A stretch of 64,000 nt of DNA from a virus (IMGVR_UViG_3300031787_000103:1392-65391); one strand, 5' to 3'. Positions 6,290-43,234 are shown, counted from the stretch's first letter. Notes: a model not told the origin generated them from the sequence alone. Numbers and translations are program-made.

Positions 6290-6437
6290 GGGGCTGTATG
6301 CTGAAAAATTCGCCTTTCTTTCCTTTCTCTATCGCTTCCAATCTCTTTCTCTCGCAGTCTTCCCACGATAGGCACGGCTCGATCACCTGCTCACCATGCT
6401 TGTTGAACCTTACAAGGTCGTACATAATCTTGTTCAT
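6273..6437 (-). CDS. Small hypothetical protein (54 aa, MNKIMYDLVRFNKHGE...)
   Basis: Read by hand; TATCTTCG-CCCC-ATG promoter/start pattern. Confidence 0.55.
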   Translation of the reverse strand: MNKIMYDLVRFNKHGEQVIEPCLSWEDCERKRLEAIEKGKKGEFFSIQPRVTTV

Positions 6438-10914: not shown

Positions 10915-11312
10915 CAACGATTGAACTCATAGCATATTGGCTGCTGTTTAGCGCGGGATGCGGTGCTTTTGAAGCATTGCTATTTCACCTTGCTAATCCG
11001 GTCAAGACAGACCTTTTCAATCAGAAGTACGGCGATATTCACGGGTATTTTACGATATTTCGAGCCGTGGGATTTCTGCCTATCCTTTTTACCGGATGGG
11101 GTGTTGTGGGATTATTGTTTGCTGTGCTGACGTTCCCTTTAATCCACGACGGAATGTATTACGAAGTCAGACATTTGCTCGACGAAAGGCTTTACGAATG
11201 TGGCTTTTGGTCAAACGAATCAAAAGACACCACGGCGAAAATATCGCTCACGTTGGAAGAACGCATATTCACTTTTGTAGGAGGCTTTGGGCTTCTGCTA
11301 TTAACGCTATGA
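10911..11312 (+). CDS. Membrane protein
   Basis: Several hydrophobic segments. Confidence 0.65.
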   Translation: MTTIELIAYWLLFSAGCGAFEALLFHLANPVKTDLFNQKYGDIHGYFTIFRAVGFLPILFTGWGVVGLLFAVLTFPLIHDGMYYEVRHLLDERLYECGFWSNESKDTTAKISLTLEERIFTFVGGFGLLLLTL

Positions 11313-11440: not shown

Positions 11441-12084
11441 AAACAACAGGACAAAACGTAATTGTACGGCTTGACAAAGGGGTCGTAAGGGATGAGATTA
11501 GGTTCGGTGAAGGAACACTGAAACTCATGAGTCCCGATATGGAAAGCAAGATGAAAAACGGGGCAAAGTCAGGAGAAGTCGTCGCAGTAGGCACGGCTCA
11601 ATCGCTTGACTCGTTTCGCAGGGGAGGAAACTCTTTCGGTGTATTGGACAATTTTGCAGTCAATGTGGGCCATAGAGTTCATTTTAAGTACCTTGCAATA
11701 GGGGCGTATCTTGACCATTTGGCTAACCCTGTAAATGTCAACCCCGGCAATGTGTTCGAGATTGAAGGCGAACTTTATGCCTCGTTCAACTACGGATTCA
11801 TTTTCCTCAACGAAACCACAAACAAGTGCCTTAACGGGTATGTGATCGGTGAGGTTATCAAGGAGGAGGTAAGTACGATTATCACCGTGCCTAACCGTGT
11901 GGAAACGAATCAAATGATAGTATCATACGATAGCCCAAAAGCCTTATTCTACCGTGGCGATGGGTTAGAGGTTAAGGAGGGAGACATAGTTGAGTTCCGT
12001 GGCGACCACATTCCTTTCGACGCCCCGCTTTTCAACGACAAGTTAGTAGTAATCCAACAAAACCAAATTTTCGATAAAAAATGA
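11437..12084 (+). CDS. GroES-like co-chaperonin with two tandem domains
   Basis: NVIVR...SGEVVAVG...VNVGHRVHF and a second unit LEVKEGDIVEF...LVVIQQNQI. Confidence 0.6.
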   Translation: MKTTGQNVIVRLDKGVVRDEIRFGEGTLKLMSPDMESKMKNGAKSGEVVAVGTAQSLDSFRRGGNSFGVLDNFAVNVGHRVHFKYLAIGAYLDHLANPVNVNPGNVFEIEGELYASFNYGFIFLNETTNKCLNGYVIGEVIKEEVSTIITVPNRVETNQMIVSYDSPKALFYRGDGLEVKEGDIVEFRGDHIPFDAPLFNDKLVVIQQNQIFDKK

Positions 12085-12343: not shown

Positions 12344-12646
12344 ATGAGCAAACAGTACGAAATTGACAGTTTTGAGAAACTGTGCAACGTGGTGAACAAT
12401 GAGAACGTAGACAGGCTTGCGGTTGACTTAGCGCAATGGCTATTGGTGTACGCAAATACAGTGGAGTCAATCCGCGAAAGTTACCCTGAACTAACTAAAG
12501 ACAAGCTAAACACCCAAATTGCAAAAGGGGCTTTTGTTTGGGTTGACGACGGTAAAAACGACCTACTTGGCGTACAAGTGACAAATGAAGCAACCGGAGA
12601 AGTAACTAAAATTGACTACACGAAAGATGAACAAGAAGAAGAATAA
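12344..12646 (+). CDS. Hypothetical protein
   Basis: ORF track; coupled. Confidence 0.6.
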   Translation: MSKQYEIDSFEKLCNVVNNENVDRLAVDLAQWLLVYANTVESIRESYPELTKDKLNTQIAKGAFVWVDDGKNDLLGVQVTNEATGEVTKIDYTKDEQEEE

Positions 12647-13169
12647 AGCATACCTTTTGACGCTTGCAGAGAGGGTTAAAAACGGCGAGAAACTTAGCCC
12701 TGAGCAGCGTCACATTTTCCTGTCAAACAACACCGTTGTCCGTAACGAAGTGAGGGGAAGGATACCAATGAACATTGACGCTTGGTTTGAACTTGCTGAC
12801 AAGGCCACTCAAAAGACATTTGGGGTTACCTTGAGCGAGGCTTGCCGTAAGACAAGGGTTCGTGACTATACCGATATTCGTAAAATCGTTATGCACACGG
12901 CTTATTTTGCAGGATACCCCTCACATGGGATAGGTCAAAGAATGGGCAAACGTGACCACGCAACGGTACTTCACGGTCGCAGAATGTACGAACAGCACGT
13001 CGAAACCGATAGTCATTTTAAGGCAATAGCCCGCGCATTTGTTGAAAACATCGTTGAACTTGAGGCTCATGTTGGGGCTTACTCATTATCTTTGCTCGGA
13101 TTAGACAAAGAATATGAGCTTGAACCGCTTACTGAAATACATTCAAAAAGAACAGCAAGAGTCGTTTAA
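12612..13169 (+). CDS. DnaA domain IV (C-terminal HTH)-like protein
   Basis: KTRVR....RKIVM......IGQRMGKRDHATVLHG matches the DnaA RDHTTV signature; true start probably 12627. Confidence 0.75.
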   Translation: MTTRKMNKKKNKAYLLTLAERVKNGEKLSPEQRHIFLSNNTVVRNEVRGRIPMNIDAWFELADKATQKTFGVTLSEACRKTRVRDYTDIRKIVMHTAYFAGYPSHGIGQRMGKRDHATVLHGRRMYEQHVETDSHFKAIARAFVENIVELEAHVGAYSLSLLGLDKEYELEPLTEIHSKRTARVV

Positions 13170-19410: not shown

Positions 19411-19461
19411 ATGATGTGTTAATTCGCGCCGTGCCTTAAGTAACCCACCTATATTTGGAGT

Positions 19462-19884
19462 ATGATTTACTCCTACTTCCAACATTGGTGGACACGGCGT
19501 CCGGTTAGAATGTACCTTGTGTCTATTATAGCCATAGGGCTGACGGTTAATTTATTCTACGCTCGTGAAGGTGAACTGACGTTTAATATCATAGCCCTTA
19601 CGGCTTGGATAGGCGTTAACTTAGCTTGGTCGTCGCCGCTTAACCCTGCTTTTCGGCATACGTTCAAGCCGTGGATTAAGTGGGAAATGGTCAATCAATA
19701 CCTCTATCAGACCGAGTACAAGGGATACGTCCACTACGTCAAGTGCCAATGGGATGATACGGGACTAATTTGGTGGTCTTTTGTGTACGACAACGGTGTG
19801 CATCTTGACTTCCGAAATGATACCATGATTCAAGCCGTGCTAACCGCAAACGAGAAAATCACGGAAATCTATGACAATAACTAA
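19462..19884 (+). CDS. Membrane protein
   Basis: Two N-terminal hydrophobic segments; TATATTTG 4 nt upstream. Confidence 0.6.
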   Translation: MIYSYFQHWWTRRPVRMYLVSIIAIGLTVNLFYAREGELTFNIIALTAWIGVNLAWSSPLNPAFRHTFKPWIKWEMVNQYLYQTEYKGYVHYVKCQWDDTGLIWWSFVYDNGVHLDFRNDTMIQAVLTANEKITEIYDNN

Positions 19885-21229
19885 GTACAACGATATATCG
19901 CTATTCCTCGAAAGACACGGCGCTTCTGCTACCACGGTCAAGAACATCACCGATATAGCCGTCGAGCCGTTTGAACTTTTCACTACAATCGGGCTAAAAG
20001 ACGGTCGCAAGGTGAAAAAAGCGGTTATTGTAATGCCTAATCTAACTCAGGACTTTGTAATTTGTGAGGTGAAATGACAAACAGAGAGAAATTCTTAGCC
20101 CTAATCCCCGAAGACGGTCAAAAATCCGATATTCACGGATACATGAGGGGCATTAAACGATGTGACGCAAATTATCAGATTGCGATGAGGCGTTATAGCG
20201 AACTTCTTGAGGCGGTTGTGCTATTTGCCGACCAAGTAGAACACAAAAGCGAGAACTTACAAGCCGCATACGACAATTTACTTGCCGTAGCGTTTGATAA
20301 ATCACGCAATAAACCCTAAAATCAACCTTAAAGAACGATAAGTCATGCACGAAGCAATGTTTTGGATGGGAGTTTTGCTAATCGCAGCGTTACTGATTTG
20401 GAAGAGCAATCAAAACGACAATGGCAATGAGAACTTGGAATCATAGGATACTCGCTTTCGACTCTCCGCACGGAGTCTACTTTGAAGCGCAAGAAGTCCA
20501 TTACGCCGACGGCGTTCCGCGAGCATACAGCGTTGATAAGCGTATTGGCGGAGAGTCTATCGAGGACATCCTTTGGACGTGCGACATGATAAAGAAAGCC
20601 TGTGAAAAACCGATACTTTGGGGCGGAGATAGATTTCCGCAGGAGTATAAACCACAAGAAAATGGCTAAATTTGACGATTACCCATTCGGGTGGACGCCT
20701 TCAATAGATAGGTGCGTAAACAAAAAAGTAAGGTGCATTAGACCTATTAACGGTTTTACAGAAGGCGAATACTACAAGGTTCATTGGGATTCATCAATAA
20801 TTGACGACAAAGGAAAGCATATTTGGTTCATGTTTGAGCCGTTTGACAAATCATACTTTGACTTCAAAAACCCAATCGAATGAAAGAAAGAAAGCAACTC
20901 GCAGAATCACTAAGGCTAATCGGAATGTATCTTGAGGGATATAGAACCGGAAGTAAAGAGGCTTTCCCGTTTGGCGATAACGTGATAAAAGACCTTTGGG
21001 CTGCTGTTCGTGAACTTAATAACCCGATTGAGCCATGAAAAAGATGTGCCGCAACTGCCTTTACTGCTCGACCCTATACAAACACCCGTCGAAAAAGAGG
21101 CTAAAGGGTCAAATATCCGAAGTCGCGGGTTTTGCTTGCCGTAATCCCGAACTATTCTCAAAGGAACAGGCGTGTTTTATGGAGAAAGACACAGGTGTAT
21201 GCGAAACGTTCACCCCTAAATACACATAA
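19871..21229 (+). CDS. Run of small coupled hypothetical genes (19871-20077, 20074-20319, 20421-20669, ~20662-20883, ~20880-21038, 21035-21229)
   Basis: Tightly packed ORFs with overlapping stop/start codons. Confidence 0.55.
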
Positions 21230-21233
21230 CACA

Positions 21234-21488
21234 ATGAGAGAAACAGGTTTCTTAGAAGTGGCCGACGCAGAAAACGGCCAGTACACCGTGCGAATCGTAG
21301 CCGCTAATGGCAAAATACTCGCATCATCCGAAACACTTCGGACAACAAAAGCAGTCGAAAAAAACGTAGACGCAATCGTTGTAGGAGCGTTTAACGGCTC
21401 ATGGCCCGACCTTATGGACGGAACGAAAGAGAAATGGTTTGCCAAAAACCGTGGATGGACGGAGAAAAGGAAGAGAAGGTCTAAGTAA
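21234..21488 (+). CDS. YegP/DUF1508-like protein
   Basis: GQY..RIVAANGKILASSE motif. Confidence 0.65.
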   Translation: MRETGFLEVADAENGQYTVRIVAANGKILASSETLRTTKAVEKNVDAIVVGAFNGSWPDLMDGTKEKWFAKNRGWTEKRKRRSK

Positions 21489-21527
21489 AAAAAAAGAAGG
21501 GGCTGCAACTTAAAGCCCCTTTTTTAT
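21487..21527. terminator. Bidirectional intrinsic terminator
   Basis: A-tract, GGGCT...AGCCC stem, T-tract. Confidence 0.6.
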
Positions 21528-21582
21528 GCTAATGAAGTGTTAATTATCACACAGGCGTTCGAGCCGTGCCTACCTTAGCCCC

Positions 21583-23622
21583 ATGTTATTCGAGCAACAC
21601 TTCACCCGTGAGCGCATCAAGACAATCGAAAACGAGGTATATGTCCTCCACGAGCGCTACAACAACCTGTTCTACAACAAACCCGAACATACGGCTGACA
21701 TCTTAATTTGGGAACTTACTCTTGCTGAGACCAATAGGGAGATTGTCGCCCGAACAACCGAGCTAAAAAGTCTGAAAGGCGCGTAAACACTACTTTACAT
21801 AATATGAGCAAAGAACACACACCCGAACCGTGGGAAATATCACACGAAACTCCCGAAGGTTATTTTGCCTTATCAAACGAACATCTTTCTATCGGCGACA
21901 TTTGGCGTAAAGAAGACGCCGAACGTATCGTCGAGTGCGTAAACTCCTGTGCAGCAATCAAACACCCCGAAAAGATATACAGGTGTCTTACACGGGTACA
22001 AGAAATCCTATCCGCAGCACTCACAAACCAAAACCACATCGACACCGATTGCCAATTAGAACTCGCAATAGGACTTATCGAAGAAACCCTCGGTGAAAAC
22101 GAGGATTAACAAACAATCGAGCCGTGAAACAAGAAAATGACTGGTTTCCAATAGACGAAACCCCAAGCAACCCACCAAGCTACTTTCCATCATCAGATGT
22201 CTACATATCCCAATCCATCTTCTTTCGAGAACTAGGGGGAGACGTAACGACGCTTCCAACCTACGAGCAATGGATGAAAGACTGCTGGCCGGAGTTCAAA
22301 AAGAGCAAAATAGAAGAAGCAAAGAAATACGGAAGGCCCGAACCAATCTTCGCTGAAACCGACAAATAATCGAGCCGTGAAACCCATATCCCAACAAGAC
22401 CTAATAGACCAAAAGTTCACGTACAACCCCCAAACAAAAACATGGACCTTATACCTTAGCGACAACAAAAAGGTCTTCGCAAAAGAAGAGAACGGTCTCA
22501 AGGCATGGGCATACGGTATCCTTAAGCACAAAATCGAACACCAAAACGAAGAAAAAGGAGGAGTAAGGTACACCCAAACCCTCGATAACCTCATACAAGC
22601 ACTTAAATAACCGTTCGAGCCGTGACAAGAGAACAACACTGCCTAAAAGCATTTGAAGGTATACAAAACCCAAGTGACTTTAACGTCCTTGAACTAATCT
22701 TCGAGATAGATAGACTCACGGAAGATGCAATAAGGCTAAACACCGAACTGCTAAAAGCTAAAACCGAACTTAACCGACTGAAAATGAACTATCCAACACA
22801 TTCGATGTGGGAACAGCAACGAGCGGAACAGGAATACTACAACAGCAACATCTAAAAACATGGAACTAAACGAAGTAGTCAAGCTTGAGAGACAAAAAGA
22901 AGCGATCTTGAAAGAGCTTAAAAGTCAAGCGCAAGAAATTGATGGTAAAATACTTGAATCCGTAAAATCACTAAGCGACAAAGACCTTATACGATACAGA
23001 ACAAAAGCACTTGTAGAAAGGTCTAGAGAGCATGGAGTATACGGAAGCGTCATGTCTCCAATACTAATAAACGAGGATTTTTGTAACGAATTGGCTTTTT
23101 ACATACTTGATAACTTTCCGTCAACCGTTATGAAAGGACTTTACTTGATACTAAAAGACGGAGTTTTAACCAATCCAGCCGAACAAGAAGCAATTAAGTA
23201 CCCTTCATTAGATCTGAATACGCCTGCCAACCTACTAAACGCATGGATGGACTATTACGCTAAAAAAAGCTACGAAGAAGAGGTCGGAGTTGTGGTAAAT
23301 CGTTATAACCTGTTTAAGTTTTCGGTAAGCAGCAAGTCAAACCCATCCCTAAACGACATAAAACAAAGCGTTGACAAATGGGCGTCTAAGTTTGAGCAAA
23401 TATTCATACACGACATAACTTGGGCATATCACGATAACGGCCCAATAGTCAGCGGATTTGCGTAATATAAAAAGCCATAACATGGAACTAGCATACGTAC
23501 ACATAACCCACCATAAAAAATCAGGGCATCAAAACATAAACATCGGTATAACTTGCATCACACTATGCCTAATTGCGTTCCTTTGGATGCTGTACCGAAT
23601 ATCAAAAGATTTCCGTAAATAA
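21583..23622 (+). CDS. Array of small hypothetical genes (21583-21786, 21804-22109, 22124-22369, 22377-22610, 22622-22855, 22860-23465, 23482-23622)
   Basis: Contiguous ORFs; three start at the GTG of the TCGAGCCGTG motif. Confidence 0.65.
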
Positions 23623-23633
23623 CCGTTCGAGCC

Positions 23634-24137
23634 GTGAAAAAAGTAATCTTCCTTGACATAGACGGTGTACTCAACGTAATAACAAAAGACTTCGATGAGT
23701 ACGGAGCAATATTCCAAGAACCGTTCGTCTCAAACCTCAAAACCCTTATTGACCAAACAGGCGCTCAAATCGTCATATCCTCCACATGGCGACACTCAGG
23801 TCTTAAAGCCATGAAAGAAATGTGGCAGAAAAGAGGACTCGCCGGAGAGGTAATAGACATAACCCCCGACCTTGCCGAAATACAAGACAACGGACTTTGG
23901 CTTGGCGTAGTAAGAGGCGACGAGGTAAAAGCATGGATTGACAAAAACCCCGTGGACAGATATGTTATTATCGACGACGACAAGGACTTCCACGAAACCC
24001 AAATGCCGTTCTTTGTAAAGACAAGCGGAAACTACTCCCACTCAGGCAACGTCGAAGGATACGGACTTACTACACAATGCACCATAAAAGCCGTGTCTAT
24101 ACTCAACGACTACTGCATGGAATTAACTGATAATTAA
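23634..24137 (+). CDS. HAD-superfamily phosphatase (Swiss-Army-Knife RNA-repair-like HAD domain)
   Basis: KVIFLDIDGVLN, IVISSTWR and YVIIDD motifs. Confidence 0.85.
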   Translation: MKKVIFLDIDGVLNVITKDFDEYGAIFQEPFVSNLKTLIDQTGAQIVISSTWRHSGLKAMKEMWQKRGLAGEVIDITPDLAEIQDNGLWLGVVRGDEVKAWIDKNPVDRYVIIDDDKDFHETQMPFFVKTSGNYSHSGNVEGYGLTTQCTIKAVSILNDYCMELTDN

Positions 24138-24151
24138 CAAATTTTCGAGCC

Positions 24152-24415
24152 GTGACACACACAACAACCATGATAGACACAATAAGAAAAGCACAAGAAG
24201 AGGCTAGAGAAAGACTCAAGGCAGAAACAATAGACGAAAACCGTCACGCAGTCCTTCTAATGGCCTCATATTGCCACAACAACCCAAATTGCACAGACCA
24301 CCTTCCGTGTATAGAATGCCTCAAAATGTGCAACGTAGCCATAATAAACCTCAATAGCGTAAACTACAAAGATGTTATAGCGGGCTACGACTTTATAAAG
24401 GGTTACGAAGAATAG
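24152..24415 (+). CDS. Hypothetical protein (Cys/His cluster)
   Basis: CH..PNC....PC..CL.MC; GTG start inside the motif. Confidence 0.6.
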   Translation: MTHTTTMIDTIRKAQEEARERLKAETIDENRHAVLLMASYCHNNPNCTDHLPCIECLKMCNVAIINLNSVNYKDVIAGYDFIKGYEE

Positions 24416-24432
24416 TGTTTTGTGGGAAAACA

Positions 24433-24487
24433 GCAGTCTTTATATGAGGGTTGGCGGAAAAAGAAAAAAAAGGCAGTCTTTATATGA
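24433..24487 (+). repeat. 15-bp direct repeat GCAGTCTTTATATGA x2
   Basis: Copies at 24433-24447 and 24473-24487. Confidence 0.85.
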
Positions 24488-24837
24488 TGCTGTGTGGTCG
24501 CTCCACCCCACCCCGTCCCATTTTTCCCGAAGTGAGTTTCGCGGCCCACCCCTACCCTAATGAAGTGACCTAATTTAGAATCGTTCTAAATAAAAGCTAG
24601 TCCGTCCTGTGCTGCCCGTGCGAGAATAAAGGCAAAGGTGTACACGGCACACTAAGGCAGCGCATAGACCGGAAAAGGCTATTGCTAGTATTTTTAGCAC
24701 AACAAAATGTGTATTCGTCGAAGGTATTGCGATGTTAGTCGAGGATATTGCGTAATTAGGCGAATAAATTAGAAAAGTCTTGCATACGTTCGCGCCGTGT
24801 GCGTATATTCGCAGAAACAAACAAACAACACAAAGCC

Positions 24838-25065
24838 ATGCAAACTAAAGATTTTCCATGTTTCAAAGAAGTAAGCAACGAAAAGAGAAGAGCGCTAATA
24901 TTCAGAAAAAAGTACGCCGCTGACAATCACTATACGTACCATATAGTCGGGCTAAGTTTAGGCCCTTTTGGGGGATGGGTTGTAAACGAAGGTATGAAGA
25001 CAACAGCACAAATGCACTCACTAGAGTCAGCGACATCAGAGGCGATAAAAATGGTTATAGCCTAA
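24838..25065 (+). CDS. Hypothetical (early) protein
   Basis: ATG after an A-rich leader downstream of a TTG-N21-TATATTCG promoter. Confidence 0.6.
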   Translation: MQTKDFPCFKEVSNEKRRALIFRKKYAADNHYTYHIVGLSLGPFGGWVVNEGMKTTAQMHSLESATSEAIKMVIA

Positions 25066-25099
25066 CCCCCGAACAACAAACAACGAAAACACAAGCAAG

Positions 25100-25426
25100 A
25101 TGAACATCCACCTTTCATTCACAGGTAACAAAAAAGAGTGTCCTAACCCGCACTATTCACCATACATATTGAAGGCAGATAAGGAACTACCAAAGATGTA
25201 TAACGCGGGATACAATTCATACACCTTTATAGGTGGTGAACCTGTATTCTCATGCGATATTCCCGACGAAGTTTTGACCGTTAAACTAGAGGGTGAAAAC
25301 TACGTGTATTACAATCCAATCCAAATAATAGTTGAAAGGAAAGACGGGACAACCTGCGGTGGGATTTTTTACAGGCACAAGGTAAAAGCAACCGGAGAAA
25401 ACATAGACGGGTTTAACTTTAGCTGA
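25100..25426 (+). CDS. Hypothetical (early) protein
   Basis: ORF track; followed by a terminator. Confidence 0.6.
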   Translation: MNIHLSFTGNKKECPNPHYSPYILKADKELPKMYNAGYNSYTFIGGEPVFSCDIPDEVLTVKLEGENYVYYNPIQIIVERKDGTTCGGIFYRHKVKATGENIDGFNFS

Positions 25427-25444
25427 GAAGTACCAACCAAACAA

Positions 25445-25471
25445 GAGCGGGGCAATGTTCCCGCTTTTTTT
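25445..25471 (+). terminator. Intrinsic terminator
   Basis: AGCGGG..CCCGCT stem plus T7. Confidence 0.7.
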
Positions 25472-26181
25472 GTGACCTGTCGTGCTAAAATTCTTAGCAT
25501 TGCATTTCAGCCCTTTTAAGCGCATGGAAAGGCTAAGGGTATACCTACGTACCACAGAAGCACTAATGTACGCCTATTGAGGCTGAAACTAAGCTATTCA
25601 CGGCGCGATTCATCCGGCTGCATTCAGTGTGGCAAGGGATAGCTATGGCCCTAACTTGCTAAATTCCTTAGCATTACCGCGCATTCCCACACAAAGGTGT
25701 ACAATCCGGTCATGTTTTTAGGTCACTTTTTAGACCCATTTTCAGAAGGCTAAAAAACAGAAAAACCCGAAAACACTGGTATCCTGCCTACGGCGAAAAG
25801 TGACCGACCTATTTTCAGCAGGTGTCAGAAACGGACGTAAAAGGGCTATAAAAAGGGGTGAGCAGGGATTGAAAAAGGGAGAGTTAACGCGCGGGTAGGC
25901 GCATTAAAAAAACCTTTCTTCTTACTTTTTCGTTTGATTTCCAAGGTTTTAACCTTAGTCAAAGTTCAGCACCCCTTTTTAGTTTGGTTTCAGCTAATAG
26001 ACCTAGTTGTGTGTATCCGCTTCGCGTGGCCTTCTGTCTTGTTCTGTCTCTGTGTATGGGTGTGAGACGTGAGGCACGGCGCGAACGGTTAGTTAATCCA
26101 TTCCGTGCGCCTGTGTACCGCTAAGTATGGACACAAAAAAGGCCGCAACTATGTGCAGCCCCTTTGTAGTGTGGTGTGTGT

Positions 26182-26358
26182 TTATTCCGGTAAGTATCCG
26201 GCAATTTCTTTTGCTCTTGCTTTGGTAATGGTTTCAGCGTTTACTTGCTTGTAATTTTCGGGGCTGAGGATTAGGAACTGAGCAAGGCAGGTTGCACCGG
26301 ATAGTGTTCTGATAACCCATGAGGTTCCCTTTACTTTGTAGATGGCTTTCACTTGCAT
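26182..26358 (-). CDS. Small hypothetical protein (58 aa, MQVKAIYKVKGTSW...)
   Basis: Read by hand; TATATTTG promoter at ~26385-26392 and a terminator-like hairpin at 26134-26165. Confidence 0.6.
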   Translation of the reverse strand: MQVKAIYKVKGTSWVIRTLSGATCLAQFLILSPENYKQVNAETITKARAKEIAGYLPE

Positions 26359-26579
26359 TGTGTGTAGTTGTTAAATGTTCGGGGCAAATATACACGGCGC
26401 GAAACGTACCTTCCAAATTTTGACCACTTTATTTTACATATTTCTGTCTACGATTTTAGGCAATTCGTCGAAGGTTTTAAGCGGTTAGGCTAATTTTTGA
26501 GGCTACACCAAAAATTTTTGTCGGAACAGGGGATTTTCGTATATACATTTGCCTCACACAAACAAACAACAAAAGCACA

Positions 26580-27101
26580 ATGAACACAGCAGTTAACACC
26601 ACGCCACGGGTTTACGTTGGCACCTACCACAAGTATAACAGCGGTTCTATCTCGGGCGCATGGATTGACCTTGATGGTCTCACTTATGATGAGTTTATGG
26701 ACAAGTGCCGTGAACTTCATTCAGATGAGCAAGACCCTGAGTTTATGTTTCAGGATTATGAGGGATTCCCTGAACGTCTCTATTCAGAAAGTGACGTATC
26801 TGAGGTATTCCAATATCTTGAGGACACGGCAGAATTGAGTGAAGATGAGGCTGAGGCATTTGAGATTTATGTAAATGACGGCAATAGCCCTAACGTGGAT
26901 GAGTTTCGGGATGCTTACGTTGGCTGCTTCACTTCTTACAAGGTTGCTGAGGAACTTGCTGAGTGGGAACTCGATCAGGATTGCGAGTTTCAGGCTATCC
27001 CTGAGCGTTTCAAATATCACTTTGATTATGAGGCATACGGGGAAGAGTTGTTGATAAACGAATTTTGGGAACATGGCGGATATGTATTTCGTCGTATGTA
27101 A
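26580..27101 (+). CDS. ardA: Antirestriction protein ArdA (type I RM DNA mimic)
   Basis: VYVGTYHKYNSGSISGAWIDL, DPEFMFQDYEGFP and FDYEAYG motifs; very acidic. Confidence 0.92.
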   Translation: MNTAVNTTPRVYVGTYHKYNSGSISGAWIDLDGLTYDEFMDKCRELHSDEQDPEFMFQDYEGFPERLYSESDVSEVFQYLEDTAELSEDEAEAFEIYVNDGNSPNVDEFRDAYVGCFTSYKVAEELAEWELDQDCEFQAIPERFKYHFDYEAYGEELLINEFWEHGGYVFRRM

Positions 27102-27184
27102 CTAGACACGGCCCGAACGCCTGCCCCGCTACTGGAATGATACCCGCAGCGGGGGAGTGGCGTCAAAAGACTAACACTAAAGCA

Positions 27185-28322
27185 ATGAAAAAAGCGAAAA
27201 ACATCCTTTGTCTTATTGTGCTGATCGGTAGCCTCAGCGCGTCCGCCTATCTGCACAGAGAAACCCGAATTTTGAGAGGCGCGAACACCTTTGATAAGTG
27301 TGTTAATCTGCACGGCGAAGGTGACGCAGCCTGTGAAGGTTGTTACTTCCTACTGATTGAGAACGGAGTTACAAACGAACCTAAACCATTCTAATACATG
27401 AAAAAGCTATTTACACTTATTATCGTGGCCGTCCTGCTTATTGGCACGGCGCAAACGGCTGAGGCCAAACCCAAACGTCCCAAATCCGGCTACAATTACA
27501 AAGCGCACCACAAAAAGAGCACGAAGTACAAGCGGGAGAATGAAAGAGGAAAGAAAAGAAAATGCGGAAGACAATGACACATGAACCTTGTCAGAAAGCC
27601 CGCATAGACGTGTACGTAAACGGGCAAATTGAGCGGATTCCGTGTATAATTACACAAGTCCTACCCGCTGAGGATATACCGTTCCGATTGACGGTGTTTA
27701 CCGATGGAGGACGAATGTACAAGAACGTTAACCCTGCTGCTGTGCATATTGAACCGGAAACGGGCGTCTATCACGTTGAGAAATAGGGGCACGGCGCGAA
27801 TTACTAACAACGAAAGACCATGAAAGTAAAAGGTAAAAGCCTGTTTGATATTACTATGGAGGGTATCAAGCTAAAGAAAAGCCGGATTCGCATAACTTGG
27901 CGTCCGGTAGGTAGCGAAAACTATCCCGAAATGAGCGCGACCAACCCTGAGTTAAAAAAGGCATTGGACACGTCTAACATCGGAGATTTTGACCTTAACG
28001 ACCACGACGATATGTTGTTCTTCGTGGGGATTAAGGCAAAGAAAAAAGACATCCTAAAAATGGAATGGATATGAAGTACAAAGTAAGCACTATCGCAGTC
28101 CTTGAGGACGGCACGGAGGTACACGGGCAATTCTACGACACAAGGAAAATAGAGGGGAAAGTGTATGTGTATTGCGTCCCGAATGATTCTGAGGCCGCAG
28201 CAGTTCGGCGACTTGTGGGAATCGGCCCTAACGTACAATGGGATGCGTACTTTAAGAAAAGGGGTGAATGTATGGAGCTGGCTAAAAAGCATTGGGAACT
28301 ATTAGCGAATATTGAAAGCTAA
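27185..28322 (+). CDS. Early small genes (27185-27394, 27398-27577, 27574-27786, 27820-28074, ~28071-28322)
   Basis: Contiguous ORFs after ardA; hairpin terminator at ~28348-28375. Confidence 0.55.
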
Positions 28323-28423
28323 GTGTTGAGTTAGTTTGTTTACGGATTGCCCTGCCTTGTGCGGGGCTTTCTGTTTTAGTGGCACGGCTCGAATGGATGT
28401 GAAAAAAAATGGCCGTACTTAAG

Positions 28424-29089
28424 TCAACATAGACTGAACTCAGACTTACGCACCCGCCATATCGAACCATAGGAGTAGAAACACTCAGACATAGAAAAGG
28501 GGTAATTCCACCACATTTGACGGTGCGCCCATTCTTGAATAGAGGCACGTTTAACCCTTTGTTTCTTGTGGGTGGTCTTTTCTATCCCGATTAGGTCGGA
28601 ACTAAGTTTCTGCATGGTTGATTTTGAAAGTCCGGTTAGCTTGGATAATTCGCGGGTACTGATTTCCACGGGGCGACCACGGTATTTTTTTAGCATTTTG
28701 CGCTGTGTTGACTTTGCTTGTGCCGCCTTTGTAGCATTGTAGTATGCCACGCGATTTATCTTGCTCCGAACTATTGCGGAGATTATTTCCTTTCTTACAT
28801 CTTCTTCACGGATTTTGAGGTATTGAGTTCCTTCTAAGTTACGTTTTGGGGTGAGAATGACACGGCCCGATTCTACGCGAGCAAATCCATTGTCAATTAG
28901 GTGCTGTATCTTGTTTGCAATGGTTGAAGCCGACTTATACGGCAACCGTCCGGTTTTAAGGACACCCTTTGCCCCTTTGTGGTAAAAGATAACCCCGTTA
29001 CGAAAAGCCCTTTTGAACACGGCGTAAACGACAAGCGTTTGCACTGGGTAGTTCGGGATGCTTTTGTACGGGATTACCGATAAATTCAT
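28424..29089 (-). CDS. Basic winged-HTH DNA-binding protein
   Basis: ISTRELSKLTGLSKSTMQK HTH-like segment; K/R-rich. Confidence 0.6.
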   Translation of the reverse strand: MNLSVIPYKSIPNYPVQTLVVYAVFKRAFRNGVIFYHKGAKGVLKTGRLPYKSASTIANKIQHLIDNGFARVESGRVILTPKRNLEGTQYLKIREEDVRKEIISAIVRSKINRVAYYNATKAAQAKSTQRKMLKKYRGRPVEISTRELSKLTGLSKSTMQKLSSDLIGIEKTTHKKQRVKRASIQEWAHRQMWWNYPFSMSECFYSYGSIWRVRKSEFSLC

Positions 29090-29218
29090 AAAAAACGAAA
29101 AGCCCTGCGGGGAAACTGACAGGGCTAAAGCAAAAGGGGTTTATTCCTCTTTCTTTTGCCTTTCGCAGTGGTTTCCCCTTCACTACGAAAAGCATCGTAC
29201 GTTTGAGCCGTAAATATA
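29090..29218 (-). promoter_or_regulatory. Three-hairpin 5' leader with terminator and complementary loops
   Basis: Loops GGGGAAAC / GTTTCCCC; a G-U pair favours the minus-strand RNA. Confidence 0.6.
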
Positions 29219-29397
29219 CAATCCTCGATTCGCAGATTGCAAACTTTTTTAGTAAGTGTTGAAAAGTATTTTTCGTCGAGCGTTTTTTGACTTTCGTCGT
29301 GCGATTGTTACAATTAGGCTAATTTCCAAGAAAATAGTTGATTTTGCCGTGTCCACCGCAGTACATTAGCCGCCGTAATCAATAACAAATAACAACA

Positions 29398-30457
29398 ATG
29401 GAACAAGTAATCGAAATCAGAGGGGCTTGGGATTTATCCGGCTCAGTGTTTATCGGGGACGTGCGTATCTGCGACCTCGAAACAGGTAAAATGAAATGGG
29501 TAAGCGGTGAGCATACTCAGGGCGACTATGACTGGTCAAACCTTTGGAGACCATGATGAAGGTAATGATGTGGCTTGCGGCTTCACTATTCAGGGAGTAT
29601 TGGAGCAAACGATAATGAAACTATGGAAGCTGACATATCGCGTGGGTAACACGGCTCAAACGCTTGTCGAAGGGCCGTACCCCGTGTGTGTCGCAAAGCA
29701 AAATCAACTCAAGGATAACTTAAATTATAGACTCGGAACATGGAAAATCGAATTTTCAAGATTGGCATGATAACCTTCCTACTCGCTGCGGCGGTCGGAA
29801 CAGGAATGGCAGTCGAAAGACAAAGGGTAAAAGAGAACAACCGGAAGTACGTGGATTGTGTGCGTTTCCGCCGTTCACCCTTAGAGGTACGGTGCAAGGA
29901 GTGTGCGTATCTGCTTGACGGACAAGAACAACAAACAAAAATGCCTAAAATCGCAAAGTAATGAGCAAACACACAAAAGGGCCGTGGAGTTTAATTAAAC
30001 AAAACGGATGCAATTTATACGGAGGTAAATCACCGTCAAGCGATTGGTTCATCTTTGAAAACGCGCTTGAAAAAGACGCCAAACTAATCGCCGCCGCACC
30101 GGACTTGTTGGAGGCGTGTATTGAGGCAAAAATGGCGCTTGAGTATCTTGTGGATGAACTTATGCACTCATCCATTGCGAGTGAAGCTATTACCAAACTT
30201 GCTGCCGCCATACAAAAAGCAGAAGGAGGTCAGCCATGAACTACAAACTAATCGAACTGCACCTTAACTCAGCCATCGAAGGCTACATGAGGGAAATAAT
30301 GCAAGTACGCGAAATGCGTACAAAAGGGCTTATTTCCGCTCAGGTTTTCGAGGCAGCGACCGCACCCCTGCAAAGCGCGGTGGATGAGGTGAACTCACTG
30401 TTAAAAGACGTGAAAAAGGCGGCGAAAAAGCCTGAATTGCAACATCCTGAATTTTAA
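29398..30457 (+). CDS. Small hypothetical genes (from 29398; 29614-29770, 29740-29961, 29961-30239, 30236-30457)
   Basis: Coupled ORFs; 29961-30239 has the common phage KHTKGPW...LIAAAPDLLEA pattern. Confidence 0.55.
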
Positions 30458-31805: not shown

Positions 31806-32223
31806 CCAAAGAAACCGTAAAAATCGACACCCGTTACCCGAAATCGGCACGGTGTATTCAGTCCACATTCACGCCGGACGGATGGAAACAAGCCACATTC
31901 AACGACCTTGCACGGCATCACGCAGGGGCCAAAAAAGAGTCGCTGTTTCAGAGGATAGTCGCAGGGGTGAAAGAAACGATTGACGAGATATGAAAACCAC
32001 TACCCCGAAGAAGATAAGGGCTTTCCCATACGAGCGTTTGAGCCGTGCCCTTGCCTACTTTGAGGACATCGACATGAACCCAAAGAGTGCTATCAAGACC
32101 TTCATGCCTACAAAGAGAAGGTTAATGCAGAAGTTGGACTACGATACCTATGACATGGAAGTGCTTGAAGCGCTTGAGGCTGTTATTGAGAAGTTAAATT
32201 CATTGCACGGCTCGAACGGGTGA
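31802..32223 (+). CDS. Two small hypothetical genes (31802-31993, 31990-32223)
   Basis: Coupled ORFs. Confidence 0.55.
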
Positions 32224-33610: not shown

Positions 33611-34138
33611 TCTGATTCTGCCGTGCCTCAAGAAGCAGGGCCGAAAACGTCTCAAACTCACAGTCCGCAGTAATCGGGTATTCCTCGCCCGCCAAAAACA
33701 CCAAAGTAGTGTTCTTTCGTTCCATGCCAAGCGCAATACGAGTTATCTGCGATACATGGATAAGGTGTTTCTGAGGAAGTATCCGTGATGGGTGGCCTTC
33801 TTCCGGTACAAGACCGTCGAAAAGCAAGTCCTCGGAGTATATTTTGCGCCGTGTACTCATAGCCCAAGTTTTTCTCTTATCTCACGTTCAGAACCCCAAA
33901 CCGTGTAAGTCCCGCAGTCGGTTTCGATAGTTGTCTTTTTTTCGGATACCGTGACCTTCTTTGTGTCGTTGTTAACAGCGATGTACGGATACACGGCTGA
34001 AACTTTGTCAATCCGCAAGGTCAACTTGTAGTCAAACGGAATATCAACGGCATCGTCACCGTCAGGCACGGTTGCAACGCTATGTGCGTCAAATGTTACT
34101 GATTTTACGATGTGGATAGGCGACCGGAACTTAATCAT
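33594..34138 (-). CDS. Two small hypothetical genes (33594-33860, 33857-34138)
   Basis: Coupled ORFs. Confidence 0.55.
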
Positions 34139-34554
34139 AGGTGTTTGTCTATTAGAAATGTGTACTTCGCGTATAATTCTTTGTCGTTGGCTGCAATATA
34201 CGCCAATTTTCGCTCCCACGAGTGCTGCAACATCTTGTCTTTGAACTTTCCGTTACCCCACGTATTGTGGCAGTCCACGCACTCAAGGACAATATTATCG
34301 GGGTCAAGCCGGAGGTCTTTTCGCACCCCCTTAGCGATGATATGGCTAAAGTAGGATACGTTAAATTCCCTTAAATGCTTGCCGCAGCTTTCGCAAACGT
34401 GGGCTTTTTTGGCCCAAATGTCTTCAAACATGGCCTTTTCGCCTGTGGGTTTACGTTTTGCGAACCCTTTTGGCTTAGGTTTATCCGCACGGTAGTCTTT
34501 GCACAGGTGTCGGTTGAAATCGGTGCAAAAACATTCTTCTCTTTGGCACTTCAT
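34135..34554 (-). CDS. HNH/zinc-finger endonuclease (NinG/Ref-like)
   Basis: CESCG...SHII...LD.DNIVLECVDCH. Confidence 0.75.
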   Translation of the reverse strand: MKCQREECFCTDFNRHLCKDYRADKPKPKGFAKRKPTGEKAMFEDIWAKKAHVCESCGKHLREFNVSYFSHIIAKGVRKDLRLDPDNIVLECVDCHNTWGNGKFKDKMLQHSWERKLAYIAANDKELYAKYTFLIDKHL

Positions 34555-34839: not shown

Positions 34840-34877
34840 GGGGCTAATGTACTCTTTTTTGGACGGGTTGTCAAGAC

Positions 34878-35812: not shown

Positions 35813-35927
35813 GTTTATCGTATTTGTTCGCCAAATGTAGAACGGACATTCGGGTTTATTGTAAAACGAAATGTTAAAAATGCGGACACGGCTCGAAATG
35901 TTGTATCTTTGGTCAAACAAAACAACC

Positions 35928-36998: not shown

Positions 36999-37370
36999 AT
37001 GGCAAAGACGGCGCTATACATTATCATCGCTCTTGGAATACTGTTCCTAACAAGCGTAGGAGGTAATATCTACCTGTGGACACGGCTCGAACGTTCACGT
37101 ATGGACATTCAAAACCTCCGTGAAATACCCACGGCACTTGAGCAGGAGATTAAATTACTCCGTGCAGACAGGGATAGTTCCGAGGCCGTAGTCGAAACAT
37201 TACTCGAAAAGATAGCCCAAAGCGAGGCCGAAGTAGATAAGATTAACAAAGAATTGTCACGTTCAAAAACCAAAAGGAATGAAACACTTAGTAACGCTCG
37301 TACTATGTCTGCTGATGAGCGGCTCGATGATGTCGCAAAGCGGTTATCCAAAGTACCTAAAGCTCCCTGA
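36999..37370 (+). CDS. TM plus coiled-coil protein, probable inner spanin
   Basis: N-terminal TM then coiled coil; overlaps the next gene. Confidence 0.5.
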   Translation: MAKTALYIIIALGILFLTSVGGNIYLWTRLERSRMDIQNLREIPTALEQEIKLLRADRDSSEAVVETLLEKIAQSEAEVDKINKELSRSKTKRNETLSNARTMSADERLDDVAKRLSKVPKAP

Positions 37371-42423: not shown

Positions 42424-42893
42424 TACGCAACTAAGTTTTTGGCCCTATAACGGCCTGTGTGGTAAATGTGACGTGCGGTGTCCATATCAGGGGTATTCCA
42501 TGTAACGTAAGACGTATCACGGCTGCAAATGACGCCATGCTTTTGACACGGCTCGACTATGTATATCTCCCCTTCGGAGTATCTATTTTTGGAAACAGGG
42601 TCGTAAATACACCCTTTCACAACCCTCACAACACAATAATGATCGCCGTGGTCGTGGATAGGCACATACCCTCCGGCTGAGACTTCTACAAATAGTTCTT
42701 GGACTTCATCGTCGCGGAACACTTGTTGGATAGTAACCTCTTTGCTCTGTCCGTTGAGCCGTGTCTTGTTTGACGGGAAATCGCGGGAAAAGTGGTTGAC
42801 CGTTCCCTCATTAGGCACTGTCTTTTCAAGCCAAAACTCTAAGGTTTGGTCAAGCTGTGCCACTTGAGCGTCGAAAAAACTGCGCTTCTTCAT
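42423..42893 (-). CDS. Cupin-domain protein
   Basis: G.VPIHDH...VVKG and PCQKHGV cupin motifs. Confidence 0.7.
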   Translation of the reverse strand: MKKRSFFDAQVAQLDQTLEFWLEKTVPNEGTVNHFSRDFPSNKTRLNGQSKEVTIQQVFRDDEVQELFVEVSAGGYVPIHDHGDHYCVVRVVKGCIYDPVSKNRYSEGEIYIVEPCQKHGVICSRDTSYVTWNTPDMDTARHIYHTGRYRAKNLVA

Positions 42894-43234
42894 CTTTTTA
42901 TCAGTTCGTCTATCTTGGTTTCAAGGGTCAAATATGCGTTCTTCGCGGCTTCCATGACCTGATTGGTCTTAATAGCCATATCTGCCATGCGCTCGATGTA
43001 TTTCTCCTTTTCGTTTCGTTCTTTGTATAAAAAGAACAGAAGAAAGACAATAATACCCACCAAAACCACGACAACAATCCCGACCTGACCTGTGAAAGCC
43101 TTGTCGATTATGTTGTTTGTAACCGTGGGGTCAACAACGGTATTGGCGGGTGTCTCGGTAACAACGTCACCTATAACAGTCGGTTGAGCCGTGACCACTT
43201 GAGCGATTAGTAGCAAGATAAGTGTTAGTCGCAT
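42890..43234 (-). CDS. Holin-like membrane protein
   Basis: Signal-like N-terminus, one TM segment and a charged coiled tail; heads the lysis operon. Confidence 0.5.
   Translation of the reverse strand: MRLTLILLLIAQVVTAQPTVIGDVVTETPANTVVDPTVTNNIIDKAFTGQVGIVVVVLVGIIVFLLFFLYKERNEKEKYIERMADMAIKTNQVMEAAKNAYLTLETKIDELIKR

What the first reader, a model, noticed from the sequence alone, without database searches (positions are those of the whole stretch)
19424..29659. Polarised Chi-like 10-mer T[CT]G[ACG]GCCGTG converging on one point of the genome
Seen: about 40 exact matches by eye, where a uniform-base estimate gives <1 in 64 kb. Plus-strand copies: 9663, 11060, 19424, 21559, 22117, 22370, 22615, 23627, 24145, 24790, 32038, 33844, 42754, 43184, 50895, 50975, 62018. 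Minus-strand copies: 2618, 6373, 8850, 9927, 11592, 25599, 26075, 26393, 27107, 27445, 27790, 28383, 28861, 29650, 32206, 35887, 37081, 42547, 44971, 45269, 49432, 52197, 59557. They lie both inside genes and between them. All 8 copies from 19424 to 24790 face right and all 9 from 25599 to 29650 face left, so their 3' ends point at the 24.8-25.6 kb interval; elsewhere orientation is mixed. Known: RecBCD/AddAB Chi sites (E. coli GCTGGTGG, L. lactis GCGCGTG) act only when approached from their 3' side. Inference: if the virion DNA ends lie here, the phage has lined both ends with host Chi-like sites that stop end resection, next to ardA. That would also point to a Bacteroidetes Chi sequence I do not know to be described. 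Alternatives are a directional translocase or primase signal, or a binding site for a phage protein.
Basis: partly seen in the sequence, partly recalled or inferred. Interest (0 to 1): 0.88.

Follow-up and report, generated by a model that had tools for sequence, protein, structure and literature searches.

The report
Oriented 10-mer arrays flanking phage ends
A 65-kb phage of Bacteroidota-type bacteria carries forty copies of one short DNA word, and the seventeen copies nearest its probable DNA ends all point towards those ends, which suggests a direction-sensitive signal for handling the ends whose reader is still unknown.

Summary
TYGVGCCGTG occurs 40 times against 0.69 expected, at the coordinates and strands given. 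20 copies lie in confident genes, 10 sense and 10 antisense, against 1.04 in synonymous-codon shuffles. So the word is selected on DNA, not on protein.

The eight right-facing and nine left-facing copies are real. They do not follow gene strand, because ardA and its neighbours are + genes among minus-facing copies. Two adjacent opposite runs this long arose in 330 of 300,000 shuffles.

The interval they point at has about double depth in two assemblies, which fits a terminal repeat.

The host-Chi reading is weak:
- None of about 430 sampled Bacteroidota genomes is enriched for the word.
- The site is about 21 bp long.
- The phage has its own RecT and exonuclease.

My best reading (0.4) is a phage-read, orientation-dependent site that works like terminal Chi arrays. 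One candidate reader is a stand-alone DnaA-domain-IV protein. No close relatives or raw reads could be retrieved.

The parts
19424..19433 (+). motif copy, left array (TCGCGCCGTG), intergenic, 28 nt before ATG 19462
21559..21568 (+). motif copy, left array, intergenic, 14 nt before ORF 21583
22117..22126 (+). motif copy, left array; its GTG opens ORF 22124-22369
22370..22379 (+). motif copy, left array; its GTG opens ORF 22377-22610
22615..22624 (+). motif copy, left array; its GTG opens ORF 22622-22855
23627..23636 (+). motif copy, left array; its GTG is the start of the HAD-family gene 23634-24137
24145..24154 (+). motif copy, left array; its GTG opens ORF 24152-24415
24790..24799 (+). motif copy, last of left array, in the spacer of a promoter-like TTG..TATATTCG before ATG 24838; inside the double-depth segment
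24529..25654 (.). segment with about double depth in short contig pieces of two runs; probable direct terminal repeat (true limits unknown); holds two small + genes (24838-25065, 25100-25426) and a + terminator at 25449-25461
25599..25608 (-). motif copy, first of right array, non-coding, inside the double-depth segment
26075..26084 (-). motif copy, right array, non-coding
26393..26402 (-). motif copy, right array, in the spacer of the Bacteroidota-type promoter TTTG-N21-TATATTTG (26385-26417, minus) that drives the 58-aa ORF 26182-26358
26580..27101 (+). ardA anti-restriction gene, with its own promoter at 26517-26551 that lacks the motif
27107..27116 (-). motif copy, right array, 5 nt after the ardA stop, before a hairpin
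27445..27454 (-). motif copy, right array, antisense inside + ORF 27398-27577
27790..27799 (-). motif copy, right array, 20 nt before the ATG of + ORF 27820-28074
28383..28392 (-). motif copy, right array, after + ORF 28065-28322 and its terminator 28349-28367
28861..28870 (-). motif copy, right array, sense inside minus ORF 28424-29089
29650..29659 (-). motif copy, last of right array, intergenic
2618..2627 (-). dispersed copy, sense in terminase large subunit gene
6373..6382 (-). dispersed copy
8850..8859 (-). dispersed copy, antisense in primase/helicase gene
9663..9672 (+). dispersed copy, sense in primase/helicase gene
9927..9936 (-). dispersed copy, antisense in primase/helicase gene
11060..11069 (+). 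dispersed copy
11592..11601 (-). dispersed copy
32038..32047 (+). dispersed copy
32206..32215 (-). dispersed copy
33844..33853 (+). dispersed copy
35887..35896 (-). dispersed copy, at the first codons of + gene 35871-36905
37081..37090 (-). dispersed copy, intergenic
42547..42556 (-). dispersed copy
42754..42763 (+). dispersed copy
43184..43193 (+). dispersed copy
44971..44980 (-). dispersed copy, sense in 2820-aa ORF
45269..45278 (-). dispersed copy, sense in 2820-aa ORF
49432..49441 (-). dispersed copy, sense in 2820-aa ORF
50895..50904 (+). dispersed copy, antisense in 2820-aa ORF
50975..50984 (+). dispersed copy, antisense in 2820-aa ORF
52197..52206 (-). dispersed copy
59557..59566 (-). 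dispersed copy
62018..62027 (+). dispersed copy
12612..13169 (+). candidate reader (inferred only): 185-aa protein with a stand-alone DnaA C-terminal (domain IV) helix-turn-helix
37724..40122 (-). phage recombination module: RecE-like exonuclease (37724-38527) and RecT (39238-40122)

Best explanation
The 10-mer is the invariant core of an asymmetric double-strand DNA recognition site of about 21 bp (C-R-n-n-C-R-T | TYGVGCCGTG | n-C-A-A). It is most likely read by a phage-encoded sequence-specific protein rather than by a host Chi-reading nuclease. Selection keeps copies all over the genome. The strongest form (TCG...) sits in the short linkers between small early genes. The 17 copies in the two early-gene blocks that flank a probable 1.1-kb terminal repeat (about 24.5-25.65 kb) are set head to head. 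Anything moving inward from either DNA end therefore meets the same face of every site, with the 3' side first on the 3'-ended strand. I infer that the arrays act as an orientation-dependent brake or loading signal for end-dependent processing (resection, annealing of the terminal repeats, or attack by host exonuclease). That is the logic of terminal Chi arrays, with a different reader. The copies inside two promoter spacers and on five start codons may also let the same protein shut early genes off. Shown: the enrichment, the selection at DNA level, the site length, the polarity independent of gene strand, and the double depth.
For: Enrichment is 40 vs 0.69. In confident genes there are 20 copies (10 sense, 10 antisense) vs 1.04 in synonymous-codon shuffles, so both strands are selected equally, as expected for duplex recognition. 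Flank preferences hold in the 22 copies I classed as intragenic: -7 C 12/22, -6 purine 18/22, -3 C 12/22, +11 C 14/22, +13 A 15/22. Intergenic or boundary copies are TCG in 17 of 18, intragenic ones in only 9 of 22. The window's proteins have no paralogues, so the shared linkers do not come from gene duplication. Polarity: 8 plus then 9 minus copies, 330 of 300,000 shuffles. The minus array lies among + genes: ardA, 27398-27577, 27820-28074 and 28065-28322. Double depth of 24811-25654 in X1 and 24529-24836 in X2, while two other short pieces of X1 are at single depth (30.1, 31.6). The record holds no second copy of this stretch. No host enrichment in 301 plus 151 genomes. The motif sits in the spacer of a canonical TTTG-N21-TAnnTTTG promoter. 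A stand-alone DnaA domain IV protein is present (PF08299, 2.2e-10, above cut-off; signature RDHATVLH aligned to 1j1v). A distant freshwater relative, MW202828.1, has its own different word in the same kind of place. It is a 16-bp palindrome with 14 copies, 9 of them in linkers just before small genes. That phage also encodes DnaA-domain-IV-like proteins.
Against: No binding was tested, and no tool here can test it. The candidate reader is tied to the motif only by being a monomer-type helix-turn-helix that reads asymmetric 9-mers in DnaA. The motif does not resemble the (recalled) DnaA box. No known phage protein is described as a polar end barrier. Outside the 10-kb stretch orientation is random (11 of 23 towards the point), so any end-directed role is local. 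The terminal repeat rests on contig depths from two runs that may be the source of the record. Depth is one figure per contig. X12 and X13 were too shallow to tell. The record's own 371-bp end overlap lies elsewhere. The orientation p value is about 0.001-0.002, which is strong but was computed after the pattern had been seen. The MW202828.1 word is palindromic and confined to its early region, so it supports a phage-read linker site but says nothing about polarity.
Confidence: 0.4

Rival explanations
1. Host Chi. The word is the recognition sequence of the host's AddAB/RecBCD-type helicase-nuclease, and the phage lines both ends with correctly oriented copies to stop degradation and promote recombination.
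For: The geometry is right for both ends: the 3' side is met first on the 3'-ended strand. Copies occur in genes in all frames and on both strands. The density, one per 1.6 kb, is close to that of the Chi-rich phage LLS (one per 1.86 kb, terminally clustered, 20 of 23 in the active orientation). MD8 has 32 of 32 in one orientation (PMC12315714, passages). The Chi of Bacteroides fragilis AddAB was unknown in 2010 (PMC2887965, passages).
Against: In 301 Bacteroidota genomes the largest count is 132 copies in 5.2 Mb, and counts do not stand out from the reversed-word control (a few low-count genomes exceed it, e.g. G026 18 vs 2). The phage has 0.62 copies per kb against at most about 0.034 per kb in these genomes. 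In 151 genomes of one order, TCGVGCCGTG reaches at most 25 copies, with none enriched over the control beyond a few low-count genomes. GCCGTG outside the 10-mer is 54 vs 49 expected, and GAGCCGTG only 3 of 25, so the whole 10-mer plus flanks is needed. That is longer than the known 5-8 nt Chi sequences. The phage has RecT plus a RecE-like exonuclease, whereas Chi-rich lambdoids lack a Rec module. Polarity is absent outside the 10-kb stretch.
Confidence: 0.18
2. Operator sites only. A phage regulator binds the word to switch early genes off or on. The head-to-head arrangement has no end-related meaning and is chance or history.
For: 18 of 40 copies are intergenic or on gene boundaries, in a genome that is mostly coding. 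Copies lie in two promoter spacers and on five start codons. The MW202828.1 parallel is a palindromic word before small genes.
Against: 20 copies are kept inside confident genes far from any promoter. The orientation pattern is unlikely by chance. It is opposite to gene direction in the right array. It also coincides with the double-depth segment.
Confidence: 0.17
3. Replication signal. The copies are priming sites for the primase-helicase, or polar fork barriers of the Ter/Tus kind, around an origin or terminus in the 25.4-26.5 kb non-coding region.
For: Two opposed arrays of an asymmetric site of about 20 bp resemble a fork trap (recalled knowledge). There is a 1.1-kb non-coding region beside the point. 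A primase/helicase and a DnaA-domain-IV protein are encoded.
Against: The replication genes and the cumulative GC-skew turning points lie near 6 kb and 38 kb, not 25 kb. 23 copies in mixed orientation elsewhere would block or prime in both directions. A sharp two-fold depth step is not what an origin gradient gives. No Tus/RTP family was seen in the 50 proteins scanned with Pfam.
Confidence: 0.1
4. Promoter of a phage RNA polymerase, or an RNA-level signal (processing or translation start), comparable to start-associated sequences.
For: The eight left-array copies are all sense and just before or on start codons. A 2820-aa virion-type ORF of unknown function exists.
Against: The right array is antisense to its genes. 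Intragenic copies are 10 sense and 10 antisense. The giant ORF has no PHROG, Pfam or PDB match and no DFDxD motif.
Confidence: 0.05
5. Recombination linkers that let small gene cassettes be swapped between related phages.
For: Low-depth variants in the runs skip whole small genes (24855-25075, 25102-25450). One joint resumes 3 nt after the motif at 24790 (24595 to 24802). Unrelated genes share about 27-nt linkers.
Against: Two of the three joints are not at a motif. Linkers do not explain the intragenic copies or the polarity.
Confidence: 0.04

Closest known systems
Terminally clustered, oriented Chi sites of lambdoid phages LLS and MD8 (Genome Res 2025, PMC12315714; passages read)
   Same: A short asymmetric word far above chance (about one per 1.6-1.9 kb), concentrated near a DNA end, and oriented so that an enzyme entering at the end meets its 3' side.
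   Different: There the word is the host's known 8-mer Chi, abundant in the host. It points one way over the whole genome towards one open end, and those phages lack a recombination module. Here the word is a 10-mer with flanks, was not found enriched in any sampled Bacteroidota genome, forms two opposed arrays confined to about 5 kb on either side, and the phage has RecT plus an exonuclease.
Ter sites with Tus or RTP (replication fork traps; recalled, no call)
   Same: An asymmetric site of about 20 bp with a highly conserved core, bound by a monomer-type protein, and arranged as two opposed groups around one point.
   Different: No Tus/RTP homologue was seen. The point is not where GC skew turns. 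There are many extra copies in mixed orientation.
DnaA boxes read by DnaA domain IV (Pfam PF08299; PDB 1j1v)
   Same: An asymmetric 9-10-bp box read by a single helix-turn-helix domain, scattered over a genome and clustered in oriented arrays. The phage encodes such a domain with the RDH-TVLH signature nearly intact.
   Different: The motif is not the (recalled) DnaA box: there are 0 exact boxes in the window. The protein lacks the AAA+ part. Binding is untested.
Start-associated sequences of Cluster K mycobacteriophages (recalled, no call)
   Same: A conserved 13-bp word just before many start codons, in the sense direction, as in the left array.
   Different: Those are confined to gene starts and to the sense strand. 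Here more than half of the copies are inside genes or antisense.
Palindromic linker word of freshwater podophage MW202828.1 (found here)
   Same: A phage-specific word placed after the stop of one small gene and before the start of the next, with some copies inside genes. The phage encodes DnaA-domain-IV-like proteins.
   Different: It is a perfect 16-bp palindrome, so it has no polarity. It has 14 copies, all within 11.5 kb and none in the structural genes. The phage is only distantly related (TerL 30% identity).

Membership tests
Chi (RecBCD/AddAB recombination hotspot) | Abundant and strand-skewed in the host chromosome | tested here: inconclusive
   The host is unknown. In 301 Bacteroidota genomes and 151 genomes of one order (about 430 distinct), none is enriched for the word over its reversed control beyond low-count scatter, and the maximum is 132 copies per genome. 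Skew could not be measured.
Chi (RecBCD/AddAB recombination hotspot) | Asymmetric and active in one orientation relative to a DNA end | tested here: met
   17 of 17 copies around the probable terminal repeat have the 3' side towards it. Activity itself was not testable.
Chi (RecBCD/AddAB recombination hotspot) | Short word of 5-8 nt | tested here: not met
   The core is 10 bp, with 8 invariant positions plus flank preferences from -7 to +13. Shorter cores are not enriched on their own.
Chi (RecBCD/AddAB recombination hotspot) | Recognised by the translocating helicase-nuclease | not testable with these tools
   This needs enzyme assays.
Chi-rich phage class (PMC12315714) | No phage recombination module or nuclease inhibitor | tested here: not met
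   RecT (phrog_148, 3.3e-69) and a RecE-like exonuclease (phrog_5715, 3.5e-43) are present.
DnaA box / DnaA domain IV | A reader with the domain IV helix-turn-helix is encoded | tested here: met
   PF08299, 40.9 bits vs cut-off 31.5. 1j1v_A E 0.0045, with RDHATVLH aligned to RDHTTVLH.
DnaA box / DnaA domain IV | The site matches the DnaA box consensus (recalled 9-mer) | tested here: not met
   0 exact boxes. 24 one-mismatch boxes vs 13.9 expected, unclustered. The motif shares only the central CC and a few positions with the box.
Ter/Tus fork trap | Two opposed arrays around the replication terminus, and a Tus/RTP protein | tested here: inconclusive
   Opposed arrays are present. GC skew turns near 6 and 38 kb, not 25 kb. 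No Tus/RTP family in the 50 proteins scanned with Pfam.
Start-associated sequences | Confined to the sense strand just before start codons | tested here: not met
   This holds for only the 8 left-array copies. 25 of 40 copies lie inside ORFs, 13 of them antisense.
Phage RNA-polymerase promoter | Sense orientation before transcription units, and a phage RNA polymerase | tested here: not met
   The right array is antisense to its genes. No polymerase was detected in the giant ORF.

The most novel reading that the evidence does not exclude
The phage carries a self-contained, telomere-like end system. A phage-encoded monomeric DNA-binding protein (possibly the stand-alone DnaA-domain-IV protein) binds oriented sites on both sides of the terminal repeat. 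It sets a polar limit to resection or degradation from the ends. This would be a functional analogue of Chi that needs no host recognition sequence.
Probability: 0.2. Interest if true: 0.85.

Novelty: new variant of a known kind. Interest (0 to 1): 0.62.

Why it matters
Oriented, end-proximal arrays of a short word are so far documented in phages only for the host's Chi sequence. Here the same layout appears on both sides of a probable terminal repeat in a phage of Bacteroidota-type hosts. The word is not enriched in any sampled genome of that phylum. If a phage protein reads it, this would be a new way for a phage to manage its own DNA ends, and possibly to time early genes. If the host nuclease reads it, this would be the first candidate Chi for a Bacteroidota lineage. 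Either outcome can be tested with a few oligonucleotides, the purified candidate protein and terminus mapping.

Tried and rejected
Close relatives could not be obtained.
- Megablast of 20 kb against phages: no match.
- IMG/VR scan with TerL: 2 loci, both 100% identical fragments.
- Scan with the primase-helicase: 1 locus, the same fragment.
- Scan with ArdA: 36 loci at 34-55% identity, none with more than one motif copy.
- Scan with P0003: none.
- Exact 40-mer from the double-depth segment: none.
- Metagenome scan with the HAD protein: 1 locus at 31% identity.
- A 16-base extended pattern gave 68 IMG/VR loci, each with a single match to it. The two loci richest in the 10-mer (L064 with 4 copies, G302 with 5) are unrelated phage contigs (G302 has 61% G+C; L064's G+C was not computed) with no protein similarity, so I take these as chance.

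The single genome-contig scan, with RecT, gave Spiroplasma, Veillonella and similar hits. It said nothing about the host. It served only to obtain a Saprospiraceae genome as the centre for sampling.

Other negative results:
- K-mers of Cellulophaga phage phi38:1 showed mainly tRNA-derived words.
- Rfam gave one sub-threshold hit in 24.3-26.7 kb, and there are no tRNAs.
- Sigma-70-type promoter and terminator scans were not above shuffles.
- The giant ORF as a virion RNA polymerase: no support.
- The crAss-like phage paper reports no common motif for its early transcripts (bioRxiv 2020.03.07.982082, passages).
- tblastn of P0001 against phages: 3 weak hits.
- A paper search for the four 10-mer words found 56 papers. 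The 15 listed were unrelated primers or sequences, so I found the word in no relevant paper among those listed.
- PMC6343036 passages held nothing on a Bacteroidota Chi.
- No RNA holder was listed among the runs.
- X12 and X13 contigs were too shallow to judge depth at 24.5-25.7 kb.

Supplements were not requested, so Supplemental Table S3 and the figures of PMC12315714, which may bear on comparisons, were not seen.

Full report
What the window is. The window is bases 1392-65391 of a 65,391-bp virus record whose last 371 bases repeat its first 371. It is a phage with these genes:
- a large terminase (phrog_6681, 1.3e-63), a replication initiator and a primase/helicase;
- an SSB, a polymerase-type exonuclease subunit, a Holliday-junction resolvase and a RecE-like exonuclease;
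- RecT, a uracil-DNA glycosylase and an amidase;
- ArdA (6.6e-26);
- a 2820-aa ORF with no match anywhere.

Its nearest cultured relatives by terminase and primase infect Flavobacteriia, at 26-32% identity. Three canonical Bacteroidota-type promoters (TTTG-N17-23-TAnnTTTG) stand in sensible places. Near-identical DNA is held by freshwater and 'fungus' metagenome runs.

The observation. All 40 listed copies of TYGVGCCGTG are present at the stated places and strands, against 0.69 expected. Order-3 Markov expectations give 14 vs 0.14 for TCGAGCCGTG. One-mismatch matches are also in excess, 89 vs 18.8. By my ORF calls, 25 copies lie inside ORFs (12 sense, 13 antisense, every frame), 6 overlap a start codon and 9 are intergenic. 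Shuffling synonymous codons within the 64 most confident genes leaves 1.04 copies on average (max 5 of 300 shuffles) where the genome has 20, split 10 sense and 10 antisense. So the word is selected at the DNA level, equally on both strands, not through protein sequence or mRNA.

Anatomy of the site. The flanks carry information. At -7 C, -6 purine, -3 C, -2 purine, -1 T, +11 C, +12 A and +13 A, one base or class holds 21-35 of the 40 copies. These preferences persist in the 22 copies I classed as intragenic, after dropping 6373, 27107 and 35887, which lie in weak ORFs or at a gene's first codons. The unit is therefore about 21 bp, asymmetric and not a hairpin. The shorter cores are not enriched by themselves: GCCGTG outside the 10-mer is 54 vs 49 expected, and 22 of 25 GAGCCGTG lie in the full word. 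Intergenic or boundary copies are TCG in 17 of 18, intragenic copies in only 9 of 22. This fits an optimal site where nothing else constrains the sequence and a tolerated variant inside genes.

The left array (19424-24790) lies in the linkers of a row of small + genes. In five consecutive cases the motif's GTG is in frame with the next ORF. For the HAD-family gene it must be the start codon: the Pfam profile begins at residue 4, and no Met occurs in the first 40 residues. These genes are not paralogues, so the shared linkers are not relics of duplication.

Polarity. Eight plus-strand copies are followed by nine minus-strand copies. Shuffling orientations gives a convergent run of this size in 396 of 200,000 trials. 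Two adjacent opposite runs both of 8 or more arise in 330 of 300,000. One-mismatch copies add 5 plus and 2 minus in the left array, and 2 minus and 2 plus in the right.

The polarity does not follow transcription. The right array lies among + strand genes: ardA, 27398-27577, 27562-27786, 27820-28074 and 28065-28322, supported by Pfam for ardA and by codon scores for the others. The competing minus ORFs score negatively. One minus copy sits 20 nt before the ATG of a + gene. Another sits 5 nt after the ardA stop. Another lies exactly in the spacer of a minus-strand TTTG-N21-TATATTTG promoter. Outside the 10-kb stretch, 11 of 23 copies point towards the 25.2-kb point, so there is no polarity there.

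What lies at the point. Between the arrays are:
- two small + genes;
- a terminator at 25449-25461;
- about 1.1 kb with no convincing ORF except a 58-aa minus gene;
- the divergent ardA promoter.

Only Logan contigs could be laid. In run X1 the contigs break at 24811-24840 and 25625-25654, and the 844-nt piece between has depth 56.5 against 28.7 and 31.5 for its neighbours. In run X2 they break at 24529-24558 and 24807-24836, and the 308-nt piece has depth 39.7 against 20.2 and 21.8. Two other short pieces of X1 (33756-34045 and 34016-35000) are at 30.1 and 31.6.

A contig carries a single depth figure, so the two runs do not contradict each other. Together they fit a segment of at least 24529-25654 present twice per genome. 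The breaks themselves are explained by low-depth variants that skip 24595-24802, 24855-25075 and 25102-25450. The record holds no second copy. A direct terminal repeat is the simplest reading.

There are caveats. Both runs may be the source of the record. X12 and X13 are too shallow to judge. No read ends were available. The record's own 371-bp overlap lies elsewhere and is probably an assembly cut. I put the chance that the virion ends lie here at a little over one half. ardA, whose analogues are the first genes to enter with T7 or conjugative plasmids (recalled), would then lie about 1 kb inside the leading repeat.

Who reads the word. The geometry fits. A 2025 paper describes lambdoid phages with terminally clustered, correctly oriented Chi sites: LLS has 23 sites, 20 of them active and half in the last 22% of the genome, and MD8 has 32 of 32 in one orientation (PMC12315714, passages). 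Three tests speak against it here.
- Host counts. In an even sample of 301 Bacteroidota genomes, no genome has more than 132 copies, and counts track a reversed-word control. The densest genome has about 0.034 copies per kb against 0.62 per kb in the phage. In 151 genomes of the order of the Saprospiraceae centre, the strong form reaches 25 copies at most, against 77 for the control in that genome. The host itself is unknown, so this is 'not found in those searched'.
- Site length. The site is longer than any known Chi, and its sub-words are not enriched.
- Recombination genes. The phage has its own RecT and exonuclease, whereas the Chi-rich lambdoids are those without a Rec module.

A phage-encoded reader fits these facts better. 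One candidate is the 185-aa protein at 12612-13169. Its only recognisable part is a DnaA C-terminal helix-turn-helix (PF08299, 2.2e-10). The DNA-reading signature is nearly intact: RDHATVLH against RDHTTVLH of E. coli DnaA in 1j1v. In DnaA this domain reads an asymmetric 9-mer as a monomer (recalled). The window has no exact DnaA box, and the motif is not one, so at most the kind of recognition is shared.

A distant freshwater podophage, MW202828.1, offers a parallel. It has 14 copies of a perfect 16-bp palindrome, all within 43.7-55.2 kb. Nine of them lie in linkers after the stop of one small gene and before the start of the next. Its half-sites resemble the DnaA box in 7 of 9 positions. That phage encodes two stand-alone DnaA-domain-IV-like proteins, one 31% identical to the candidate here over 65 residues. 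This supports 'phage-specific protein site in early-gene linkers' as a recurring theme. Being palindromic, it says nothing on polarity.

Most likely mechanism. I take the word to be a duplex binding site for a phage protein. Its two opposed arrays give both ends of the DNA the same polarity, so that a process starting at the ends is checked or directed in an orientation-dependent way. Candidate processes are resection by the phage exonuclease before RecT anneals the terminal repeats, or attack by a host helicase-nuclease. The copies in promoter spacers and on start codons could at the same time silence early genes once the protein accumulates. The dispersed copies may serve the same protein at internal breaks or simply as a reservoir. 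This part is inference.

Rival readings are scored in the report sections: host Chi, pure operator, replication signal, promoter or RNA signal, and cassette linker.

Standing. The end-directed interpretation is plausible and has a published analogue. The specific Chi claim is not supported by the tests that could be run.

Noticed in passing
whole window: Strong avoidance of some short palindromes: CCAGG 0, CCTGG 0, ACCGGT 0, GCCGGC 0, TCCGGA 1, CTAG 12 and GATC 41 per strand in 64 kb. CCGG occurs 167 times, 142 of them in the context TCCGGY/RCCGGA. This looks like restriction-site avoidance alongside ardA.
   Followed up: partly
L179+L180 (MW202828.1) 43748-55166: 14 copies of the perfect 16-bp palindrome GTGTCGTTAACGACAC. 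9 are in linkers before small + genes and 5 inside genes, with none elsewhere in the 60.8-kb genome. The half-sites are DnaA-box-like, and the phage encodes two DnaA-domain-IV-like proteins.
   Followed up: partly
window 43259-51721 (-): A 2820-aa ORF in the structural block with no PHROG, Pfam or PDB match and no DFDxD motif. It is not similar to the 3859-aa ORF of MW202828.1.
   Followed up: partly
window 24595-25450: Low-depth variants in the metagenome runs skip 24595-24802, 24855-25075 and 25102-25450. The latter two correspond to whole small genes, so genes appear to be gained or lost like cassettes beside the probable terminal repeat.
   Followed up: no
window 25482-25498, 25656-25672 and 24683-24699: Three copies of a palindrome of the form TGCTAA-N5-TTAGCA (the third imperfect) in the non-coding stretches around the convergence point. 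This may be an operator of a dimeric regulator.
   Followed up: no
window 17966-18191: A 226-nt stretch of the tail-fibre gene is matched, with 39 differences, by a contig of much higher depth (275.9 in X1) from another entity in all four runs. This suggests a shared receptor-binding module.
   Followed up: no
window 63630-64000 and G000 1-371: The record ends in a 371-bp direct overlap that falls inside a gene. It is probably an assembly cut of a circular path rather than the physical terminal repeat.
   Followed up: partly
window 12612-13169 (+): The stand-alone DnaA-domain-IV protein has only two relatives in the 5.8-billion-protein collection at E<=0.001, one of 99% and one of 49% identity.
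   Followed up: partly
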